Assembly: GCA_964612335.1 (NCBI GenBank)
Contig: CAZTDU010000014.1
Coordinates: forward strand, 288 to 64,287
From: an uncultured Enterobacteriaceae bacterium
GTDB taxonomy: Bacteria > Pseudomonadota > Gammaproteobacteria > Burkholderiales > SG8-39
Direction of reading: 5' to 3'
Length of the DNA: 64,000 nt
Part shown: positions 44,763 through 59,206 of the stretch, one piece after another
Position numbering within the stretch: position 1 is the first letter of the stretch
How the letters are laid out: each line of letters starts with the position of its first letter
Program-made: the position numbers and the translations under genes
The notes under the pieces: generated by a model
Told to the model about the DNA's origin: nothing
What the model saw: only the letters and a program-made list of their open reading frames with translations
The model's database searches: none

Positions 44763-45101
44763 GTGGATACGCGCTGTCCTGCCTGCGGCGCGGCCCTCGG
44801 CAAGCGCAAGCTCGCCGCGGCCATCGTCGCGCGCATGGACATGGACTGCATGCACTGCAAGGCGAGGATCAGGCTGAACCTGCATCCGCTCGAGCTGCGC
44901 ATCGTGCTCCTCGCCAGCGCCGCGTTCGTCGCGGCGGCACTGCTCGCCACCCTGATGCAGAGCGACGCGCTGATGCTGCTCGCCTTCGGCGTCGCGGCGG
45001 CGGGCGCGATCGCGCTCGAGGTGCACGAGCGCGTGCGGCTGCGCGACTGGCCGCGCTATGCGCGCACCGAGCCGCCCGGCGGCACTGCGCCGCCTCAGTA
45101 G
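44763..45101 (+). CDS. Hypothetical membrane protein with zinc-ribbon-like N-terminus
   Basis: CPACG...CMHC followed by two TM helices. Confidence 0.55.
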   Translation: MDTRCPACGAALGKRKLAAAIVARMDMDCMHCKARIRLNLHPLELRIVLLASAAFVAAALLATLMQSDALMLLAFGVAAAGAIALEVHERVRLRDWPRYARTEPPGGTAPPQ

Positions 45102-45880
45102 ACGAAGGCCCGCACCAGGTTCAGGTCGCCGATCTTGCGCAGCGGCACGACGAAGCTCTCGCGCCGCTCGCGCAGCGTGTTCTCGTGCACGATCAGGCTC
45201 ACGCGCGCGGTGATGAGGTCGCGCTCGCGCGTGGATTCGTCGAAGTGGTAGCCCGAGGCGCCGAAGTTGCCCCAGTAGTTGACGTACACGCGCCACGCGC
45301 CGCGGTGCGGCGCGGTGACCGAGAAGATCTCGGGCCCCGCACCGTCCACGCTGTCGACGTCGAAGCCGCCGCCAGCGGCGAGCACCGGCCGCGCCCAGTA
45401 GGCGTGCTGGCCGTCGGGCGCGAGCACATGCAGGTCGACTTCTGCCTGCGGGTCGTCCCAGGTCAGCACCATGCGCAGCTGCGCCTGCGGCCGGCTCGCG
45501 TTGGCCTCGTAGAACTGCACGCGCTTCGCCTTGCCATCGGGCAGGCGCACCTCCACCCCGTTGGAGCCGGCGCCGAACGCCCAGGGCCGCGCGAAGGCGC
45601 CGTCCTTGCCGGTGTACAGCGGCATCGGGTTGCCGTTCACCACCAGCGTCGGCGGCCGGCGCGACTGGCCCGCGGCCTTCAGCGTGCCGGCGATCAGCGC
45701 GCGGTGCTTCTGGCCGCCGCGATCTATCGGCGGCGTCGGGTAGGCGTGGCGCACCTCGCCCGCGGCGTCGACGAGGCCGCTGTGGTTCCAGCCGCCGGTC
45801 GGGCGCTGCAGCGACACCTGCCCCTGCGCCAGGGCGCTCGCGCAGGCCGACGCCAGGACCAGCAGCAGCGCGGCGCGCAT
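45095..45880 (-). CDS. DUF2135 YfaP/MagA-like protein (second copy)
   Basis: LVVNGNPMPL, LTWDD...DLHV.APDG, DVD..DG.GPEIF, VYVNYWG. Confidence 0.8.
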   Translation of the reverse strand: MRAALLLVLASACASALAQGQVSLQRPTGGWNHSGLVDAAGEVRHAYPTPPIDRGGQKHRALIAGTLKAAGQSRRPPTLVVNGNPMPLYTGKDGAFARPWAFGAGSNGVEVRLPDGKAKRVQFYEANASRPQAQLRMVLTWDDPQAEVDLHVLAPDGQHAYWARPVLAAGGGFDVDSVDGAGPEIFSVTAPHRGAWRVYVNYWGNFGASGYHFDESTRERDLITARVSLIVHENTLRERRESFVVPLRKIGDLNLVRAFVY

Positions 45881-46650
45881 CAGCGGTAGGCGAACGAGGC
45901 CACGCGGGTCAGTTCGCCGGGCTTGCGCATCGGCACGCGAAAGCTGCGCACGGTTTCGCGGTCGGTGCCTTCGCCCGCGACCACCGCGAGCTGCGCGGTG
46001 GTGACGATGCCGCGGTGCTCCTCGCCGCCGGCGCCGAAGTAGTTGACGAACACGTGCCAGATGCCGGGCGCGGGCGCGGCGCTGGCGTAGATCTCGGGGC
46101 CGTAGCCGGTGGTGACATCCACGTCCAGCGCGCCGCCGCTCGCGCCGACGCGATGCGCGTAGTACACGTGCTCGCCGTCGGGCGCGATGACGTGCAGGTC
46201 GAGGTCGGTGCCGTCGGTATCCCACGAAAGCACGATGCGCAGCCGCGCCTGCGGCCGCAGCGCGTTCGCGTCGTAGAACTGCGCACGGCGCCGCGCCTTG
46301 CCGTCGGCCGAGCGCACCTCGACCGCGTTCGAGCGCGCGGCGAAGGAGTACGCGCGCGCGAAGGCGCCGGTCTCGTCGGTGGGCAGCGGCATGGCGATGC
46401 CGTTCACCACCAGCGTGCCCGGGCGCCGGTCGCCGCGCGGCGCTTTCGGCGCGCTCGCGATGCGGCCGCGGATCAGCGACGCGTTGCCGTGCACGCCGGT
46501 ATTGGCGGAGGACGCCGGGTAGTTCACTTCCTGGATGAAGCCGGATTCGCCACCGCCGTGGCGCCAGCCGCCGACCGGCAGTTCGATCGCGGCCTGCGCG
46601 AACGCGCCGCCGGCGAGGCTGCACAGGACGATGGCGGCGAGCGCGCGCAA
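45880..46650 (-). CDS. yfaP: DUF2135 YfaP/MagF-like protein
   Basis: LVVNGIAMP, LSWDTDGTDLDLHV, LDVDVTTGYGPEIY; TTG start. Confidence 0.82.
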   Translation of the reverse strand: MRALAAIVLCSLAGGAFAQAAIELPVGGWRHGGGESGFIQEVNYPASSANTGVHGNASLIRGRIASAPKAPRGDRRPGTLVVNGIAMPLPTDETGAFARAYSFAARSNAVEVRSADGKARRRAQFYDANALRPQARLRIVLSWDTDGTDLDLHVIAPDGEHVYYAHRVGASGGALDVDVTTGYGPEIYASAAPAPGIWHVFVNYFGAGGEEHRGIVTTAQLAVVAGEGTDRETVRSFRVPMRKPGELTRVASFAYR

Positions 46651-46653
46651 GGT

Positions 46654-48198
46654 TCAGAGCTCCAGCAGCCGGCGCGCGAGGCGCTCGACATAGGCCTCGT
46701 CCGCGCCGTTCGGATGAAAGCGCAGCGCAAGGTGCAGGTACTCGTGCGCCAGCGCAAGGCGGCCTTCGCGCGTGCGCCAGTCGCGCGCGTAGATGCGCAG
46801 CCGCTGCTGGTCGGCGTAGGGGTTGCCGCCGGCGAGCGCGCAGACGCGCAGCGGCGCGCCGGGCGGCTCGAAGCCGGGCTCGCCGTGCAGCTGCCTGCGC
46901 CAGCCGTCGGCTGCGCGCGCGAGCCAGGCCTCGGCTTCGCCGATGCGCCTGCAGTCCTCGCCGCCGGCGAGGCCGGCGAGCTCGGCCTCCGGGTAGGCGC
47001 GCGCGAGGATGGCGTCGAAGCCCGCGCCATCGCGCGACCACTCGAGCGCGTCGCGCCAGGACATCCGGTTCGGCGCCGGCGCGTCGCGGTGGTAGCGCAC
47101 CGGGACTCCGCGCAACACCAGGTCGTCGGTGAACTTCGCCGCCGCAAGCGCCTGCGCGCTGGGCGGATTCGGGCTGACGCGCTGCGTGCGCGTGGAATCG
47201 GCAATGCGCCAGCAGCCGGCCTCGAAGCCGGCGTTTTGCACCAGGTAGCTGCGCGCCGCCACCGCCAGCGCGCGCGCTGCCGCGGTTTGCGCGCCGCCGC
47301 CTTCGCGGTCGATGACGCGCGCGACGTAGTCGTTCAGCGTGAAGCGGCCGCTGATGCGCCTGTCCGCGTCGATCGCGAGCTCGCCGCGCGCGCCGGCGTC
47401 GATGCGCAGCCAGTTGCCGTTCTCGAACGCGATGCGATAGGCGCCATGCATGCGGCCCGTCGCCGCCGGCAGCACTGCCTTGACCGGATAGCGGACGAAG
47501 AAGTCCACCTCGACGCAAGGCGCCTGCGCGGGCTCGCGGTCGCGCGGTTCGGGCAGCGCAGCGGCAAGCGCCTGCGCGTGGCTGCGCAACGCGCTGCGGC
47601 TTGCGCCGCGCGCGCCGAACCAGAACGGCGTGCCATCCGCGAGCCAGCCGGCGGCGCCGCCCATGCCGTCCCAGGTCCAGGTCTTGAAGCGCACGCCGCT
47701 GCCGAGGGCGCGCCAGGCGTCGCGGCCGTAGCCGGCAAGGCTGACTTCCAGCAGTGCGCGCCGCGCTTCGCCACGCGCGGCGACCGACAGGCCATCCAGC
47801 GCTTCCAGGATGTCGCGCACGCTGGCGCGCGAATCCTCGCGCCAGCGCGGCGGCGGCAGGCCGAGCCGCCGATGGTCGAAGTAAGCGCCGCAGGAGCGCG
47901 CGAGCGCCACGTCGCGCCCTATGCTCTCGCCGGGGGCGCAGCAATGGTGTTCCGGGTCGCTCGCCTTGCGCGCGTGGCTGGTGCAGACATACGGCGGCTC
48001 CTGCGCGTTTGCATCGACGAGCTGCGCGTAGGTGAAGAGCTTCCACAGGCTGCCGACCGGCACCGGCGCAGCGGGCAGGTTGCGGCCTGCAAGCTCGCCG
48101 TCGCGCAGCCATGCGGCGCCGAAGTTGGCGCTCGCCGCCAGCGCCGAGGCGAACACGGTGAGGGCGGCGGCAAGGCTAGCGAATCTCGATGCGCGCAC
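46654..48198 (-). CDS. yfaQ: DUF2300 YfaQ/MagE-like protein (SpoIID/LytB-like C-terminal region)
   Basis: PVGSLWKLF, CCAPG..ALARSCG, YVARVIDREG, DSTRTQRV, HEYLHL; start estimated at GTG 48198. Confidence 0.8.
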   Translation of the reverse strand: MRASRFASLAAALTVFASALAASANFGAAWLRDGELAGRNLPAAPVPVGSLWKLFTYAQLVDANAQEPPYVCTSHARKASDPEHHCCAPGESIGRDVALARSCGAYFDHRRLGLPPPRWREDSRASVRDILEALDGLSVAARGEARRALLEVSLAGYGRDAWRALGSGVRFKTWTWDGMGGAAGWLADGTPFWFGARGASRSALRSHAQALAAALPEPRDREPAQAPCVEVDFFVRYPVKAVLPAATGRMHGAYRIAFENGNWLRIDAGARGELAIDADRRISGRFTLNDYVARVIDREGGGAQTAAARALAVAARSYLVQNAGFEAGCWRIADSTRTQRVSPNPPSAQALAAAKFTDDLVLRGVPVRYHRDAPAPNRMSWRDALEWSRDGAGFDAILARAYPEAELAGLAGGEDCRRIGEAEAWLARAADGWRRQLHGEPGFEPPGAPLRVCALAGGNPYADQQRLRIYARDWRTREGRLALAHEYLHLALRFHPNGADEAYVERLARRLLEL

Positions 48199-51100
48199 GC
48201 GGCCGCTCCTCGAAGGCCTTCTGCTCCGGCTGGTACATGCGCGTGTAGCGCACCGGTGGCAGCGCATAGCTACCCGCCTGCGCGACGCGCAGCAAATGGC
48301 CGATGCTCAACTCGCCCGTGAGTTCTTCCACCGGGAAGGCGTAGCCGGTGGGATTGGACTCGAACCTGGCGCGCTCGAGCGCGGCCGCCTCCTTGCTGCC
48401 CGGTTTCCTTACCGCGATGCCCCAGGTAGAGCGGTCCGCGCTGGCGCCGGGCGGCAGCGCCACCTCGACGACGCCGTAGCGCAGCCGTGCGCCAAGGCGC
48501 GGCTTCAGCACGATTTCGTCCAGGTACAGCGCATCGGTCTGCAACGGCGTATTCGCGCCCACCGCTTCCAGGGCGTATTCCGCGGGCGCGGCGGCTGGAT
48601 CGAGCGGCGCGGGTGGGCCGTCACCTGAGCGCGCGGCGGGCTTTGCCGCAGGCTGCGCGCTCGCGTCGATGCGCGTCAGGCGCCAGATGCGCCGCTCTAT
48701 CGTCAGCGGCAGCGTGCTGCGCTCGGGTTCGCGCGAGGCGTAGCTGACGATGGCCTGCGTGCCTGCCGGCACCGGGGCGGCGAGCGGCAGCGCGGATGGC
48801 AGCGGCGCGCCCGCAGGCAGGCGCCAGAGCCGCTGGCCGGTGGCGCTGCTCACCGCTTCCCAGGGGGCGTCGAGCGTCACGCCGCTGTCGCTGCCGCGCG
48901 GCGCTGCGCCGCCGAGCGCGCGCTGGATCCACACCAGTGCCAGCGCGCGGTCCACGGTGGCCATGTCGGCCGACACCTCCTGCAGCACGCGCGCGGCGTC
49001 TGCCGCCGGGCCGCGCTTTGCCATCAGCGCCAGCGCCTGCGCCAGCGGCACGCCGCTGGCGCGCAGCGACTCGATCGTGGCCGCCTGCTCCTTCGCGAGC
49101 CGCGGCGGCAGCGGGGCCTTCGCGCGCTGCGCCACGTAAACGGCGAGCACGCGCGTCATCGCGTCCACGCCCGCCTGCTCGTCATCGGCGAGCACGAGGC
49201 TGTCCGCGCGCGCCGCCGGCTGCGCCGTGGCCGGTGCCGGCCGCGCGGCGAGCTCGTCGGCCAGCGCGGCGGCCAGCGATCGTATCGGCAGGCCGAGTTC
49301 CTGCATCCAGTAGAGCATCAGCGCGCGATGCCAGTGCGAGCGCTTCACACCCGCGCTGCGGTATACCTCGAGCAGCCTGTCCCAGTGGCCGGCGGGCATG
49401 GCAAGTCCCAGTGCGCGGCTCGCGTGCCAGTCGGCGTAGTAGGCGTACGCGGTCAGCAAGGCGTCGCCGTCCCTGGCGGGCGCGCTCCACCAGCCGAACA
49501 CGGCCTTCGGGCCGGCGAACTGCGCCAGCCGGAATCGCTGCGTGTGCAACTGCTGCGTGAGGCGCGGCGCGAGGCGTTCGTCGCCGGCGACCAGCGACTG
49601 CACCGCGAGGCTGTAGGGAATCAGGCGGCTTGCGGTCTGCTCGACGCAGCCGTGCGGGTAGTCGATGAGCTCGTCCATGACGCGGCGGAACTGCGCCGCG
49701 GCGGAATCGGCGAAGCGCACCGTGATGCCGCTCGCATCCGGCGGCAGCTCGAGCGGCGCATCCGCGGCGATGCTCGTGGAACGCGCGCCGGGCCAGTGCA
49801 CCGGGACCGATTTCAGCGGCACGCTCAGGCTGTCGACGACCTGGCCGGCGGCGGCAAGCGACAGCGTGACGCTCGCGTCGCCGGAGGAGACGTCCAGCGG
49901 CAGGCGGACGAAGTTCGCGCCCGGGTTCAGCGTCAGGCGCTCGGATTTCGCCAGCCCGGCGCCGCGCGCGGAGAACTCCGCCAGCACCGGCTCGGTGCCC
50001 TGGTTGAACAGCGCCGCGCTCGCCTGCGGCGCATCGCTCGCGCGCAGCCAGGTCGGGCTCGCCCATTTCACGTACAGCGCCTTGTCCGAGCGCACGTGGC
50101 TGGCGGACTGGCCGACCACGCCGGCGGCATCGATCGCGCGCGCGGTGATGCGCCAGCGCGTCAGCGCATCGGGCATGGTGAATTCGAGCGTCGCGCGCCC
50201 GTCGGCGCCGGCGACCAGGTCGGGCTGCCACAGCGCGGTGTCGCGGTCGTCGCGCCGCGGGCGCTCGAGCACCTTGACGGCGCGCTCGGGCGACCGGCGC
50301 CGCGACGGCGCGGATTCGCGCCCGCGCGGGCGCGCGAGGTCGTAGCCGATGAAATTCAGGCTCGCCGAGGTGCGCACGTTGTTGCGGCGCGGATGGTAGA
50401 AGAAATCGAAGATGTCGGGCGCGATCTCGGGTTGCAGCACGTAGACCATTTCGTCCACCACCGATACCGTCAGCCGCGCGCCGGCGGCGGGCTTGCCGGC
50501 GATGCTGGCGGCGAGCTCCAGCTTTACCGTCTCGCCCGGCGCATACACCGGCTTGTCGGCCTTCACACGCACGTCGATCTTCGGCTGCTCGACGCGCAGG
50601 CCCTGGTTCTGGAACGCGTACTCGCCGGCCTTCACGTACGCCACGGACAGCGTGATGTTGGGGCCGTAGTCCTCGCCCACCGGCAGCGCGGCACGCCACT
50701 GCGTCGGCGTGACGCGCGTGGTGTTCACCCAGGACTCGCCCGAGACGAGCAGCGCGGTCTTCTCGACGCGATCGCGCTCCAGCGTGATGAGGGCGTGGTC
50801 CACCGGCTGCGGAAAGGTGATCAGCGCGCTGGCGGTGTCGCCCGGCCGGTAGCTGGCGCGGTCCAGCACGATCTCGATGGTGCCCTGCGGCGCGGCGATG
50901 CCCTCGCCGCTTACCCAGTGCGAGGCGGCGCCGACGATGTTTCCGGCGGCGTCGCGCAGGTTCACCGTGTAGCTGCCCGGCTGCTCGAACGCGATCACGA
51001 GCTGCGCGCGGTCGGCGAGGCGGCCGGTGGCGCGCTTGCGGTCCTCGAGCCGGATGCTTTCCCAGCTCTCGGGCGGCATGCCCTGCTGCCGCAGTGCGCG

Positions 51101-52765
51101 GATCGCAAAGCGCACGCTTTCCTTCGGCGCCGAGAACGACTTCGCCGCGGACAGCGCGTACAGGCCGGCGCCGCGCTCGATGAGGATTTCCTTCGTCGTG
51201 CGCACGCGGTATGCGGCGCCGTCGGTGGCGAGCGCGGTCAGCACGTAGCGGCTGGGCTCGGTCGCCGCGGGCAGCGTGAACTGCGCCATGCCGTCGGCGT
51301 CGGTGGTGAGCGAGGTGCTCGCGAGCTTGAGCGCGAACTGCCCCGCGTAGCCGAGGTCGCCCTCGACCATGGTGAGGCGCTGCGCGCGCACGCCGAGTTC
51401 CACCTTTGCGCCGGGCACCGGCTTGCCGTCCGGATAGCTCAGCTGCAGCCGGCCGGAGATGGCATCGCCGGTCCGGTAGTCCCGCTTGTCGGTGACGAGC
51501 CCGATCTCGAAGTGCGGCTTCTGGTAGTCGGCGACGCGGAACGCCGCGCCATAGGCGTCGCCCTTGTAGGTGAAGCGCAGCTCGTAGCCGCCCGCGCCGG
51601 CGTTCTCCGGCAGGCGAAAGCTGGTGGCCGCCCCGGCATCGGCATCGAAGCGCACTTTCTGCGTCGCGACCGGAAAGCCGCCGGGATCGAACACCGAGAT
51701 GTCGAGCTCGGCGGCCGCCGCCGCGCGCGTTTCGCGCGCCGACAGGAGCTCCCGGCCGAGGAACTTCACGAACACCTCGTCGCCCGGCCGGTACAGCGGC
51801 CGGTCGGTCACCGCGTACAGGCGGGTGTTGTAGATCTCGCTGTCGTAGTAGTAGTTCTCGGAAACGAACACGCCGCCCGCCGGGTCTTCGCCGAACACAT
51901 AGGTCTTCTCCGGCGCGCTGCGCGAGAACACTGCCAGGCCGGAACGGTCGGTGGCCCCGCTTTGCAGCACGCCGACGCCGTCGGTCCACACCACTTTTGC
52001 GTTCGCCACCGGCCTGCCGTCGCCGCGCTCGGCGACCCACGCCAGCATCTGCCCGGCGGAGACCTTGGTTACCGCGACCGTGCTGGACACGAACACCAGC
52101 GTCGTCGCGCGATGCTCGCCGAGCAGCGCCTCGACCAGGTACAGCCCGGGTTCGCGCCTGCCGAGCGGGATCATCACGTTGCCCTGCTGCACGCGGATGA
52201 AGTTGCTCGAGGAGCCCGACAGCTTCACGCCCCTGGGCGGCTCGATCGGGCGCGCCAGCTCCACCGGGTAGCGGAAGCTGTCGGCGAGCACCATGCCCCG
52301 GATCGGCGCGTACTGCGGGTGCTGCGCCTCGGGTGCGCGCTTGCCGATCTGCGCATGCGTCTTCGTGCCCGGCGCCTGGCTGGTCACCGCAAGCCGCGCC
52401 TCCGGCGTAAAGAGCCTGCGCCACACCATGCGCGACTGCAGCCACCAGGTGTCCCAGACTCGCGCCAGGGCATTCGACAGGCCTTCGCCCGCGTAGGCGC
52501 CGGCAGCGTCGACGCGATGCAGGTTCTTCTGTTTCTGCAGGAATTCGAGCGGCTGAGGAATGCGGTACACGCGCAGGTCGACGCCGCCGTACGCCGCCAC
52601 CGCGTGCAGCGACGTGGCTTCGAGCCTCACCATGGCTTCTGCCTGCGGCGACCAGGAAGCATCCGACAGCAGGAAGAAGGGGTCGCCGCGCTCGGGCGCG
52701 TAGTCGGCGTGAAGCGGCGCGGCGAGGAGCGCGGCGACGATGAACGCAAGCGCGCGCAGCATCAT
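48176..52765 (-). CDS. yfaS: Bacterial alpha-2-macroglobulin, YfaS/MagD type
   Basis: 1529 aa; [36 protein letters not shown]; yfa operon context. Confidence 0.92.
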
Positions 52766-53394
52766 GCGCCGAGGAAGGCGAGCCGGAACACGCCGGCGAA
52801 GTTAGGGTTGCGGCGATCGGGCTGCCAGCGCGTGTCGCTCCAGCGCAGCAACTGCGGCAGGCCGACCGCGCGCAGCCCGTTGTCGTGCGGCGTTTCGGTC
52901 CCGGTGTGGTACGCGATCGACGTGCCCATCCATACCATCACGTGCTGGTCGTCGCCCTGGTCGAAAAAGAGCAGGTCCGCCGGCTGCGCGAGGTTGCAGT
53001 CGCGCGCCACCAGGCGCGTGTTTTCCTGCACCAGGTCGATGGCGCCGGCGTAGGCGGCGTGCGAGCCGTCGGCGAGCCGCCAGCGGTGGCGCAGCGCGGA
53101 GAGCTGCGCTGCGTCCAGCGCCGGTTCAGGCGGCACCGGGCGGCCGAGGAATCCGTTCGCCCGCCTCCATGCCGGGTCGTGCGCGCGCAGCGCTTCGGCG
53201 ACCGCGAAGCGCACCAGGCCGGCGCAGTCGCGATGATGCCAGCGCGGCGTCGGCCCGCGCTCGACCTGCGCCGAGACGATCAGCACCATCCAGGCGCGGA
53301 ATGCGCGCGATTGCTGCGGCGTGAGGCGGCCCGCCGCGAGCGCAGGCATCGCCGCCAGCGCCAGCAGCGCGCCGAGGAAGTCGCGACGCCTCAC
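52762..53394 (-). CDS. yfaT: DUF1175 YfaT/MagC-like protein
   Basis: [39 protein letters not shown]. Confidence 0.85.
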
Positions 53395-55007
53395 TCGAGC
53401 GGCTCCCAGCGCGCCGGCTGCCAGCCGTCGCGACGTGCCGCGTCCTCATCCAGCACCAGGCGGTGCGCGGGATACTTCGCCAGCGCCGCGAGTCGCGGCG
53501 CGAGGTGCGTCTTCAGCGCCGCGGACAGCACCGACTCGTGCGCACGCGGCACCGCGGCGCCGGCCTCGCGGGCCACCATGTCCGCAAGCATGCGCGGCGT
53601 CACCACGGCGAGCGTGACGCCCTCGCGCGGCAGCTGGTCGGCGACGCCGGGATGCCTGCGTGCGATGGTGTCGATGGCAAGGTCCACCAGCGCGGCGTCG
53701 GGCGAGAACACGCCCAGCGTGCCGCTCGCGGCCAGCGTGGGCGCGGCGAGCAGCGCGGTGACGTGCCGGCGGGACGCATCCGGCGCGGCGCCCGCGGCGC
53801 GCCAGGTCTGCGCGCCGCCGCCTGCTTCCCGCCGCGGCAGCGCTGCCGGTTCGCGCGCCAGCGTCGCGTCCTTCTCCTGGCCGCTGCTGAAGCCGGGTTT
53901 GCGCAGCGCCCATTTCGCCATGCCGGCGAACAGCGCCTCGTTGTCGGCGGCGGATTTCGTCAGCCTGGCGACGAACAGCGGCGCGTACAGCGTCGAGTGC
54001 GGGTACCAGCAGGCGATGGCGCTGGATGCCTCCGGTACGTTGACCGCCTTCTGCGCCACCCTGGCCGGCATGCGTGCGTCCAGCGGCAGCAGCAGGCAGG
54101 CGCCGGCGTTGGCCGGCGCGGCGCTCCACAGCGCCGCGTCGTCGAATGCCTTGCGCGTCGTCTGTCCCGGGCGCAGCAGCAGCCGCGTGCTCCAGGTGTC
54201 GCCCGCGAGGTCGAAGCGCAGCGCCTCGATGCCGGGCACGAAATCCTCGTAGCCGAGCGCGAACGCCGAAGCGCCCACCGCCAGCGCGTGCGTCGAGCGC
54301 GCGGCGCCGAGGCGGAAACGGCTGGTCAGCGCGCCATCGGCGCGCAGCCACGAGGACAGCGCGTCGCGCGAGGCGGCGACGAAGCGGCCCCTGGCGTCCA
54401 GCAGCATGCCCGGGTCGGAGAGCACCGCGATGCGTTCGCCGCGCACCGCGATGATCAGCGTGCGCCTGGGGCCGATTCTCAATGCGTACACCGGGAAGTC
54501 GAGGCCGTGTCCCGCCGCATCCTGCAGCCGCGTGAGCTGCCTGTCCTTCAGCGCCACCGCGGCGGCCTGCTGCAGCACGCGCGCGATCGCGCCGCGCCGC
54601 ATCACCAGCGCATAGTGGCGCAGCGCGCCATTGCCGTCGCGCCAGAACGCGAGCTCGGCGGGCTCGTCCAGCGCCATGCCGAGGATGCGGTCCGACCAGT
54701 CGAGCCTGTGCTCCCAGGCGATGCGCCGCAAGCTTCCCTTGAGGCCGAGCCTGTCCTCGTGCTGCTCGTAGTAGAAGACGAAGTCCTCGGTAAGCACGTC
54801 ACGCAGCACCGGCACGCGCAACAGGTCGCGCGGCAGCTTCGACAGGCTTGCCGACATGATCGCCGCGTCGGGCGCGGCGAGGTCGACCGCGAGGCGCGTC
54901 GCCGTCAGCGTGGCAGGTTTCCAGAGGAAGTGTCGATAGGCGAGGGCGGCCGCGATCGCGACGAGCACGACGGCGGCGGCAAGCAGGCTGATGCGGAGGG
55001 TGCGCAC
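53391..55007 (-). CDS. yfaA: DUF2138 YfaA/MagB-like protein
   Basis: [38 protein letters not shown]. Confidence 0.85.
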
Positions 55008-55021
55008 GGCTGATGCCGATA

Positions 55022-57904
<2,883 letters not shown>

Positions 57905-57997
57905 ATGGAAGTCCCGGAGAGGGTAACTTGCTACTATAGCGGTTTCCCCTTGCCCGTCTCCAGCTTCGCTGTTCCCCCTGTGAACGATCCCATACGC

Positions 57998-59206
57998 ATG
58001 TCGCCCGCGGAAATCCGCGCCGGCGCGAGCCTCGCCGGCGTGTTCGGCCTGCGCATGCTGGGACTGTTCATCATCCTGCCCGTGTTCGCGGTGCACGCCC
58101 CCGGGCTTGCCGGCGGTGACGACGTGCTGCTGGTGGGAATCGCGCTGGGCGCCTACGGCCTGACGCAGGCGGTGCTGCAACTGCCCTTCGGCATCGCGTC
58201 GGATCGCTGGGGCAGAAAGCCGGTGATCGCCGCCGGCCTTCTGATATTTGCCGCGGGAAGCTTCCTTGCCGCGTTCTCGACCGACATCTGGACGACCATC
58301 GCGGGCCGGGCGCTGCAGGGGGCCGGGGCGATCTCGTCCGTGGTGGTGGCGCTGGCCGCGGACCTGACGCGCGAGCAGCACCGCGCCAAGACCATGGCGA
58401 TGGTTGGCGCATCGATCGGATTCATGTTCGCGCTGTCGCTGGTGGCGGCGCCGGCGCTCTACGGGCTGATCGGCATGGGAGGCCTGTTCGCGCTCACCGG
58501 AGTGCTGTCGCTCGCGGCGCTGTGGCTGGTGCTGGTCGTTGTCCCGGCTGCGCCCACGATTCCGCGCGCCGCGCGCGGCGAGGGCGGCCTCGCGCGGGTG
58601 CTGGCGCCTGAGCTCTTGCGCCTGGACGCGGGCATCTTCGTACTGCACCTCGTACAGATGGCGATGTTCGTCGTCGTGCCGCCGCTGATCGTCGAGGCCG
58701 GCCTGCCGATGGCCGCGCAATGGAAGCTGTACCTGCCGGTGGTGCTGGCGTCGTTCGCCATCATGGTGCCGGCGATCCTGCATGCCGACCGCCGCAACAG
58801 CGCCAAGCCGGTGATGCTGGCGGCGATCGCGCTGCTTGCCGCGTCCCAGCTGGCGATGGGACTGTTTTCCCCCGGCATCGCGCTGCTGGCGACCGGGCTG
58901 CTGGTGTTCTTCGTCGCCTTCAATGTGCTCGAGGCGTTGATACCATCGCTGGTGTCGCGCATCGCGCCGGCGCATGCACGCGGCGCGGCGATCGGGGTAT
59001 ACAACACGACCCAGACCCTGGGACTGTTTTTCGGCGGGCTGGGCGGCGGCTGGATCGCCAAGCTGTGGGGCGCGCCGGCGGTGTTCGCGGCCTGCGGCGT
59101 GCTGTCGCTGGCCTGGCTGGGAATCGCCGCAGGAATGCGGCAGGTCCGGGCGCCGGCGGTCAACGCCGGCTCCGGTTTTGCGTTGGGTGAGAAGCCGCGC
59201 ACGTAA
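57998..59206 (+). CDS. MFS transporter (YajR-like)
   Basis: [30 protein letters not shown]; conserved uvrA-MFS-ssb context. Confidence 0.9.

What the first reader, a model, noticed from the sequence alone, without database searches (positions are those of the whole stretch)
49637..49648. Yfa/Mag-operon alpha-2-macroglobulin with an intact CVEQ thioester motif
Seen: the DNA encodes [15 protein letters not shown] within a 1529-aa A2M in the yfaA-yfaT-yfaS-yfaQ-yfaP context, with an Arg-rich bait-like segment ([27 protein letters not shown]) and a Sec-type signal without a lipobox. Known (from recall): the YfaS/MagD class in this operon type is described as lacking the thioester Cys, unlike YfhM-PbpC A2Ms. 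Inference: this is a thioester-competent member of the nominally thioester-less class, which could covalently trap trypsin-like proteases.
Basis: partly seen in the sequence, partly recalled or inferred. Interest (0 to 1): 0.62.

Follow-up and report, generated by a model that had tools for sequence, protein, structure and literature searches.

The report
Ordinary thioester-bearing Mag/Yfa-operon macroglobulin
The gene encodes a periplasmic protease-trap protein (alpha-2-macroglobulin) with an intact reactive "thioester" motif, but most relatives in this operon type also keep that motif, so it is a typical member rather than an exception.

Summary
Window 49637-49648 (minus strand) encodes CVEQ within [15 protein letters not shown]. 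It sits in a 1529-aa alpha-2-macroglobulin (48176-52765) that has one cysteine in total.

- 118 of the 120 nearest homologs carry CxEQ.
- So do 69 of 72 operon-anchored loci from species-representative genomes.
- So do 85 of 99 representatives of 50%-identity clusters.

On trees, the window's protein sits in an all-Cys clade. E. coli YfaS (GVIN) and Pseudomonas MagD-type proteins (GVEQ) share one small, derived clade. An earlier paper already says the second class lacks CxEQ only "in many species".

Thioester competence itself is likely:
- The motif aligns with CLEQ of E. coli YfhM.
- Three of the four known pocket residues are present (Tyr1036, Met1510, Tyr1511); the fourth is His1038.
- The pocket Met is kept in 99% of Cys-bearing relatives and 22% of Cys-less ones.
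- The predicted fold matches native, not activated, bacterial macroglobulins.

Verdict: a new member of a known kind, of low interest.

The parts
53391..55007 (-). yfaA/magB homolog (DUF2138), 538 aa, with an N-terminal hydrophobic helix; presumed inner-membrane anchor of the complex
   Evidence: Pfam PF09909 E=3.6e-112; NCBIfam PRK11410. The anchor role is inferred from MagB (PMC5764988).
52762..53394 (-). yfaT/magC homolog (DUF1175), 210 aa
   Evidence: Pfam PF06672 E=2.5e-54.
48176..52765 (-). Alpha-2-macroglobulin (YfaS/MagD family), 1529 aa, single Cys
   Evidence: Pfam MG2, A2M_BRD and A2M domains. Placed within the YfaS/MagD clade on both trees. AF2 model of residues 840-1529 has pLDDT 87 and matches native ECAM and Sa-A2M.
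52706..52765 (-). Probable Sec signal peptide (residues 1-20, [20 protein letters not shown]), no lipobox Cys
   Evidence: Read from the translation. The only Cys in the protein is residue 1040. No signal-peptide predictor was available.
50270..50338 (-). Bait region (residues 810-832, [23 protein letters not shown]), 7 Arg in 23 residues
   Evidence: It lies at the position that aligns with the MagD bait ANRSERG (PMC5764988). The family has a segment of 22-25 residues here that is variable in its first part. Arg enrichment has an uncorrected P of 0.003.
49637..49648 (-). CVEQ thioester motif (Cys1040...Gln1043)
   Evidence: It has the same sequence context as CLEQ of YfhM, YPYGCLEQTASGL.
49652..49660 (-). 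Pocket positions in the thioester domain (TED): Tyr1036 (-4) and His1038 (-2), corresponding to Tyr1175 and Tyr1177 of Salmonella A2M
   Evidence: Pocket residues are defined in PMC4498604. Tyr/Phe at -4 occurs in 104/105 Cys-bearing rows. His at -2 occurs in only 1/105 of those rows, the window's own protein, where Tyr, Phe or Trp is usual. His at -2 is seen in 7 of the 120 nearest homologs.
48233..48238 (-). Met1510-Tyr1511 of the C-terminal MG domain, counterpart of the thioester-shielding Met-Tyr (EXMY motif) of Type I A2Ms
   Evidence: TRMYQPE aligns with ESMYVPQ of YfhM (PMC4498604). Met is present in 104/105 Cys-bearing rows and 4/18 Cys-less rows.
46654..48267 (-). yfaQ/magE homolog (DUF2300). 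The true start is probably near 48198, since the listed ORF overlaps the A2M 3' end
   Evidence: Pfam PF10062 E=6e-29. The N-terminal translation shows a signal-like stretch only after residue ~24.
45880..46650 (-). yfaP/magF homolog (DUF2135), 256 aa
   Evidence: Pfam PF09906.
45095..45880 (-). Sixth operon gene: MagA-like DUF2135 paralog, 261 aa, with a signal peptide. Its ATG overlaps the yfaP stop codon by one base
   Evidence: tblastn shows 58% identity to the ORF upstream of magB in the Pseudomonas-type locus L098. Translation. Pfam DUF2135 E=1.7e-10.

Best explanation
This is a typical member of the Yfa/Mag-operon ('Type II') family of bacterial alpha-2-macroglobulins. The family as a whole mostly retains the ancestral CxEQ thioester; E. 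coli YfaS and Pseudomonas MagD are derived, Cys-less exceptions.

Likely mechanism (inferred):
1. The protein is exported by Sec.
2. It is held at the inner membrane in a complex with YfaA/MagB and the other operon products.
3. It folds with a Cys1040-Gln1043 thioester buried between the thioester domain and the C-terminal MG domain, shielded by Tyr1036, His1038, Met1510 and Tyr1511.
4. A protease that reaches the periplasm cuts the Arg-rich bait (residues 810-832).
5. The C-terminal domain releases the thioester domain, and the exposed thioester acylates the protease, trapping it covalently.

Shown here: the motif, the operon, family placement, the distribution of CxEQ, conservation of pocket residues, and a native-like predicted fold.

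Inferred only: thioester formation, complex assembly, and the identity of the target protease.
For: Motif and ORF. Operon.

CxEQ census:
- 118/120 nearest homologs.
- 69/72 yfaA-anchored GTDB loci; the same five-gene order is seen in 76/90 fetched loci, the rest being cut by contig ends.
- 85/99 representatives of 50%-identity clusters.
- Even taxonomic samples: all families carry CxEQ except one Pseudomonas-like family, which has GVEQ.

Trees (FastTree with 128 rows; IQ-TREE with 66 rows):
- The window's protein lies in a 15-row all-Cys clade (support 97-100).
- YfaS and the MagD-type proteins lie together in a small clade (support 100) that is mostly Cys-less.
- The outgroups carry Cys.
- At least 11-12 state changes are needed.

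Thioester competence:
- Pocket residues are as defined in PMC4498604.
- Of all 1529 columns, only four are conserved at 95% or more in Cys-bearing rows and at 60% or less in Cys-less rows. They are Trp115, Leu267, the Cys itself and Met1510.
- In 11 phylogenetically independent contrasts, loss of Met accompanies loss of Cys in 7 and goes the other way in 0 (sign test p=0.016).
- The AF2 model has pLDDT 87 and pTM 0.82.
- Foldseek matches native ECAM and Sa-A2M at TMq 0.55-0.58, against 0.34 for protease-activated ECAM.
- The protein has a single Cys in 1529 residues.
Against: No experiment shows a thioester in any Mag-operon A2M.

The -2 pocket position is His rather than the usual Tyr, Phe or Trp (1 of 105 Cys-bearing rows). 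This could weaken the pocket or change its chemistry.

The census is dense in Burkholderiales. Counted by sequenced genomes rather than lineages, the Cys-less Enterobacteriaceae and Pseudomonas forms may be the more numerous.

Parsimony cannot strictly tell losses from regains, since Gly to Cys needs only one base change.

MagD traps a protease without a thioester (PMC5764988), so covalent chemistry is not required for trapping in this family.
Confidence: 0.8

Rival explanations
1. One reading: this is a rare, thioester-competent exception within a class that is otherwise thioester-less.
For: The literature on the two studied proteins describes Type II as lacking CXEQ (PMC3735191, PMC5764988). 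E. coli YfaS reads GVIN. The MagD-type proteins read GVEQ.
Against: CxEQ is present in 81-98% of relatives in three independent samples, and in all sampled families but one. The Cys-less model proteins form one small derived clade. PMC3328433 already says the class lacks the motif only 'in many species'.
Confidence: 0.04
2. The CVEQ motif is retained but no thioester forms, or it is unstable. The protein would then act as a non-covalent trap like MagD, with the motif kept for structural reasons.
For: MagD traps TEV protease without a thioester (PMC5764988). Many Cys-less relatives still keep E and Q (GVEQ), which shows these residues can persist without a thioester. The pocket Tyr at -2 is His in this protein.
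Against: The Cys is conserved in nearly all relatives and is the only Cys in the protein. The pocket Met is constrained only where the Cys is present, which is hard to explain without a functional thioester. The predicted arrangement is native-like and closed.
Confidence: 0.14
3. It is really a Type I (YfhM/ECAM-like) macroglobulin that landed next to yfa genes.
For: It has CxEQ, and its TED motif is similar (YPxGCxEQTAS).
Against: There is no lipobox Cys. No pbpC is adjacent, and the draft genome has no second A2M. phmmer against PDB sequences does not reach ECAM or Sa-A2M at E<=0.001. Both trees separate YfhM from the whole YfaS/MagD clade with support of 100. The gene order is the same as in 76 other loci.
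Confidence: 0.01

Closest known systems
Pseudomonas aeruginosa MagD (PA4489), the 'Type II' A2M of the magABCDEF operon
   Same: It belongs to the same protein family and has the same operon partners: DUF2138/MagB, DUF1175/MagC, DUF2300/MagE, DUF2135/MagF and a MagA-like paralog. Both have a Sec signal without a lipobox. The bait is at the homologous position.
   Different: MagD-type proteins read GVEQ, with no Cys, and have Leu or Val in place of the pocket Met. MagD traps proteases non-covalently (PMC5764988). In this window the motif is CVEQ and Met1510 is kept. The MagA-like gene lies at the 3' end of the operon instead of the 5' end.
E. coli YfaS (b4500; a pseudogene in K-12) in yfaA-yfaT-yfaS-yfaQ-yfaP
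   Same: The five core genes are in the same order. The flanking motifs are conserved (SLSFISYD...LERPRRE).
   Different: YfaS reads EPWGGVINTGSRL, so Cys, Glu and Gln are all lost. There is no MagA-like sixth gene in the E. coli locus.
E. coli YfhM (ECAM) / Salmonella A2M, the 'Type I' thioester A2Ms linked to pbpC
   Same: Both have a CxEQ thioester motif in the context YPxGCxEQTAS, a C-terminal Met-Tyr shield motif, and the same fold for the MG7-to-C-terminus region (PMC4498604). This is the mechanism I think the window's protein most likely shares.
   Different: Sequence relationship is very distant and the two form separate clades. YfhM is a lipoprotein, is encoded next to pbpC, and has no Mag partners.

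Membership tests
Yfa/Mag-operon ('Type II') bacterial A2M | Encoded between DUF1175 (yfaT/magC) and DUF2300 (yfaQ/magE), with DUF2138 (yfaA/magB) upstream and DUF2135 (yfaP/magF) downstream | tested here: met
   Pfam hits. The same order is found in 76/90 related loci. A MagA-like sixth gene is present.
Yfa/Mag-operon ('Type II') bacterial A2M | Groups with YfaS and MagD, apart from YfhM-type proteins, on a protein tree | tested here: met
   FastTree and IQ-TREE both separate the outgroup with support of 100.
Yfa/Mag-operon ('Type II') bacterial A2M | Signal peptide without a lipobox cysteine | tested here: met
   The N-terminus has no Cys; the only Cys is residue 1040. The signal peptide was judged by eye only.
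Yfa/Mag-operon ('Type II') bacterial A2M | Absence of the CXEQ thioester motif (as the class is defined in PMC5764988) | tested here: not met
   CVEQ is present. However, this criterion fails for most of the clade. It describes the two model proteins, not the family. I therefore still file the protein here on operon context and phylogeny.
Thioester-containing A2M/C3 superfamily (functional thioester) | CxEQ at the homologous TED position | tested here: met
   [13 protein letters not shown] compared with YPYGCLEQTASGL of YfhM. There is a weak Pfam TED_complement hit over the motif, E=0.015, below the cut-off.
Thioester-containing A2M/C3 superfamily (functional thioester) | Hydrophobic pocket of bacterial A2Ms: two TED Tyr (-4, -2) plus Met-Tyr from the C-terminal MG domain (PMC4498604) | tested here: inconclusive
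   Tyr1036, Met1510 and Tyr1511 are present; position -2 is His1038. The Met covaries with the Cys across the family (p=0.016).
Thioester-containing A2M/C3 superfamily (functional thioester) | Helical TED packed against the C-terminal MG domain in a native (closed) arrangement | tested here: met
   AF2 model pLDDT 87. The best Foldseek matches are native ECAM 5a42/4ziu and Sa-A2M 4u48 (TMq 0.55-0.58), against 0.34 for the activated forms 4ziq/4rtd. This is a prediction, not a solved structure.
Thioester-containing A2M/C3 superfamily (functional thioester) | A Cys-Gln thioester actually forms and reacts with nucleophiles | not testable with these tools
   Needs biochemistry: methylamine/DTNB titration, autolysis, covalent adducts.
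YfhM/ECAM ('Type I') A2M | Lipoprotein signal, pbpC neighbour, YfhM-clade sequence | tested here: not met
   No lipobox. The neighbours are yfa/mag genes. The only PbpC-like hits are on another contig, with no A2M nearby. The protein falls in a separate clade.

The most novel reading that the evidence does not exclude
Most Mag/Yfa-operon macroglobulins, this one included, are true covalent thioester traps working inside a membrane-anchored multi-protein complex. On this reading, the current 'Type II = thioester-less, non-covalent' picture rests on two degenerate model proteins (MagD, YfaS) from one derived clade. In this particular protein, the His that replaces a pocket Tyr next to the thioester might also alter its reactivity.
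Probability: 0.55. Interest if true: 0.4.

Novelty: new member of a known kind. Interest (0 to 1): 0.22.

Why it matters
For this window, the result matters little. The gene is one more ordinary member of a family described since 2004, and the feature that attracted attention is the family's majority state.

The wider point is modestly useful. The definition 'Type II bacterial A2M = no thioester' is drawn from P. aeruginosa and E. coli and does not hold for most lineages. The link between loss of Cys and loss of the pocket Met argues that the thioester is functional where it is retained.

Anyone studying the Mag complex mechanism should therefore consider a CxEQ-bearing ortholog, for example from Ralstonia, Janthinobacterium or Massilia, as a more representative model than MagD.

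Tried and rejected
- Budd et al. 2004, the original description of the two classes, could not be read by PMC id, DOI or PubMed id. The statement that the class is only partly thioester-less therefore rests on Neves 2012 citing it.
- An 8-sequence YfaA alignment was too diverse for the search for related loci. A 4-sequence alignment worked.
- phmmer of the whole protein against PDB sequences did not reach any bacterial A2M. The link to Type I needed a fold comparison.
- NCBIfam has no model for the A2M.
- A class-wide even sample of 400 genomes found the operon in only one further genome, so it added a single data point.
- The promoter/terminator scan of the operon gave nothing above shuffles.
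- Three literature searches (YfaS, MagC, census of Type II thioesters) found no paper that maps CxEQ across the operon class.
- I considered and rejected a Type I identity and a chance CxEQ (expectation 0.002).
- I could not measure Cys1040-Met1510 distances, because the model's coordinates are not exposed to scripts.

Full report
**1. Observation**

The minus strand of window 49622-49666 translates to [19 protein letters not shown] occupies exactly 49637-49648. It lies in the ORF 48176-52765 (-), which encodes 1529 aa.

This protein has one cysteine in total, the one in CVEQ. From its own composition, a chance C.EQ is expected 0.002 times.

Pfam finds MG2, A2M_BRD and A2M domains in the protein. 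In the neighbours, all on the same strand, it finds:
- DUF2138 (53391-55007)
- DUF1175 (52762-53394)
- DUF2300 (46654-48267)
- DUF2135 (45880-46650)

So the yfaA-yfaT-A2M-yfaQ-yfaP context is real. The N-terminus ([22 protein letters not shown]) looks like a Sec signal and has no Cys. This was judged by eye only.

Its ATG overlaps the yfaP stop codon by one base. It is a second DUF2135 protein with a signal peptide. It is 58% identical to the gene that sits upstream of magB in Pseudomonas-type loci, so it is a MagA-like protein.

**2. What the literature says**

The two papers on P. aeruginosa MagD describe 'Type II' A2Ms as lacking CXEQ. They show that MagD traps a protease non-covalently (PMC3735191, PMC5764988).

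I confirmed this directly. E. coli K-12 YfaS, annotated as a pseudogene, reads EPWGGVINTGSRL at the site. Four Pseudomonas-type loci carry MagD's published bait ANRSERG and read YPWGGVEQ or YPYGGVEQ.

However, Neves et al. 2012, citing the original 2004 survey, say the second class lacks the motif 'in many species', not in all (PMC3328433). I could not obtain the 2004 paper itself.

**3. Census of the motif**

I used three independent samples.
- (a) Of the 120 nearest homologs in a 5.8-billion-protein collection, down to about 41% identity over the thioester region, 118 have CxEQ.
- (b) I anchored on the neighbouring gene, so that the A2M's motif state could not bias the sample. I searched species-representative genomes with a YfaA alignment. 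432 loci matched and the best 80 were returned. Of these, 72 contained the A2M thioester region. 69 have CxEQ (CVEQ 51, CAEQ 16, CIEQ 1, CTEQ 1) and 3 have GVEQ. The five-gene order is the same in 76 of 90 fetched loci; the rest are cut by contig ends.
- (c) An exhaustive HMMER search of 1.84 billion representatives of 50%-identity clusters gave 99 hits covering the site. 85 of them have CxEQ.

Even taxonomic samples add the following. Among 401 genomes spread over the phylum, 13 have the operon. Nine of these loci could be read through the site. Five have CxEQ, from four different families. The four GVEQ loci all come from one family, the Pseudomonas-like one. One further family from a class-wide sample has CVEQ.

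**4. Phylogeny**

I built a FastTree of 128 full-length proteins and an IQ-TREE of 66. Both were rooted on E. coli YfhM and other distant Cys-bearing A2Ms.

- The window's protein falls in a clade of 15 rows, all Cys-bearing (support 97 and 100).
- Its nearest neighbours are uncultured Burkholderiales and Rhodocyclaceae/Azonexaceae. Highest identity is 72%.
- E. coli YfaS and the MagD-type proteins fall together in one small clade (support 100) that is mostly Cys-less.
- At least 11-12 changes of state are needed.
- With Cys in the outgroups and in most lineages, the simplest reading is repeated loss. A regain from Gly needs only one base change and cannot be formally excluded.

**5. Is the thioester likely to be functional here?**

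Fyfe et al. 2015 (PMC4498604) define the thioester-protecting pocket of bacterial A2Ms. It consists of two Tyr in the thioester domain (TED), at -4 and -2 from the Cys, plus a Met-Tyr (EXMY motif) from the C-terminal MG domain.

The window's protein has Tyr1036, His1038, and Met1510-Tyr1511. TRMYQPE aligns with ESMYVPQ of YfhM.

I compared conservation between 105 Cys-bearing and 18 Cys-less family members. Only four of the 1529 columns are conserved at 95% or more in the first group and at 60% or less in the second. They are Trp115, Leu267, the Cys itself and Met1510 (99% against 22%).

On the tree there are 11 independent contrasts in Cys state. Met changes in the same direction in 7, in the opposite direction in 0, and not at all in 4 (sign test p=0.016). 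A pocket residue that is constrained only where the Cys is present is what a working thioester predicts.

An AlphaFold2 model of residues 840-1529, built with a 46-sequence alignment, has pLDDT 87 and pTM 0.82. Foldseek places it closest to native ECAM (5a42, 4ziu) and native Salmonella A2M (4u48), with TMq 0.55-0.58. The protease-activated ECAM structures score 0.34. The predicted domain packing is thus the closed, thioester-shielding one.

Caveat: His at -2 occurs in only 1 of the 105 Cys-bearing rows in the tree set, and that row is the window's own protein. It is seen in 7 of the 120 nearest homologs. Its effect is unknown.

**6. Bait**

The family has a segment of 22-25 residues (22 in most rows, 23 here) between SLxFIxYD and LERPRR. 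Its first part is variable and its last part (NERxVKV) is conserved.

The MagD bait ANRSERG was predicted, then replaced by a TEV site, and that site was cleaved. It lies in this segment (PMC5764988).

Here the segment is [23 protein letters not shown] (residues 810-832; window 50270-50338), with 7 Arg. Other rows printed have 3-6 Arg plus Lys. Its C-terminal half (VKVLERPRR) is a family-wide structural motif rather than bait. A preference for Arg-specific proteases is a reasonable guess, nothing more.

**7. Genome context**

The window comes from a 2.97-Mb, 76%-complete draft genome of the same order as Massilia, that is, Burkholderiales in the genome taxonomy used. It has only this one A2M. 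It has no YfhM-PbpC pair in the assembled part.

**8. Verdict**

The claim of exceptionality is not.

The gene is a new member of a known kind. The by-products are:
- CxEQ is the majority and probably ancestral state of the operon class.
- The pocket Met decays after loss of the Cys.
- The MagA-like gene moves around the operon.

These concern the family, not this window. The first is already implied in the literature and was noted earlier in this scan (e1-015874), which my independent census agrees with.

Noticed in passing
It is a MagA-like DUF2135 paralog with a signal peptide, and its ATG overlaps the yfaP stop. Across the loci scored, the MagA-like gene lies downstream of yfaA in 46 (38 together with a yfaP-like gene, 8 without), upstream only in the 4 Pseudomonas-type loci, and is not detected in 26 (E. 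coli among them).
   Followed up: partly
window 49652-49654 (-), His1038: The pocket position two residues before the thioester Cys is His. Nearly all Cys-bearing relatives have Tyr, Phe or Trp there (YPYGC); YPHGC occurs in 7 of the 120 nearest homologs. It could change thioester stability or nucleophile preference. This is untested.
   Followed up: partly
window 48236-48238 (-), Met1510, and the family alignment: Across the family, the C-terminal-domain Met of the thioester pocket is kept in 104/105 Cys-bearing proteins but in only 4/18 Cys-less ones. It is lost after Cys loss in 7 of 11 independent contrasts. This is an evolutionary signature that the thioester is functional where it is retained.
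   Followed up: yes
window 55022-58975 (-): The ORF is 1317 aa, but the UvrA match starts at residue ~359, so the real uvrA start is probably near 57900. The uvrA stop is only 14 bases upstream of the yfaA start on the same strand. No sigma-70-like promoter was found, so read-through transcription from uvrA is possible.
   Followed up: no
window 48176-48267 (-): The listed yfaQ ORF overlaps the A2M 3' end by 92 bases and begins with an Arg/Cys-rich stretch that looks non-native. A signal-like segment starts about 24 codons in, so the true start is probably near 48198.
   Followed up: partly
L017 and L047 (genome-contig loci): The closest relative of this operon (72% A2M identity) is in a metagenome bin labelled 'uncultured Enterobacteriaceae'. 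Another relative is in a bin labelled 'uncultured Bifidobacterium'. Both sit among Burkholderiales/Rhodocyclales sequences on the tree. The record labels are probably wrong, or the contigs are mis-binned.
   Followed up: no
L034, L037, L056 (Massilia / Pseudoduganella / Oxalobacteraceae loci): These are recent, independent Cys-to-Gly losses (GVEQ) nested among close CVEQ-bearing relatives in Oxalobacteraceae. L034 still has the pocket Met, while L037 and L056 have Val. This could serve as a natural time series of pocket decay.
   Followed up: partly
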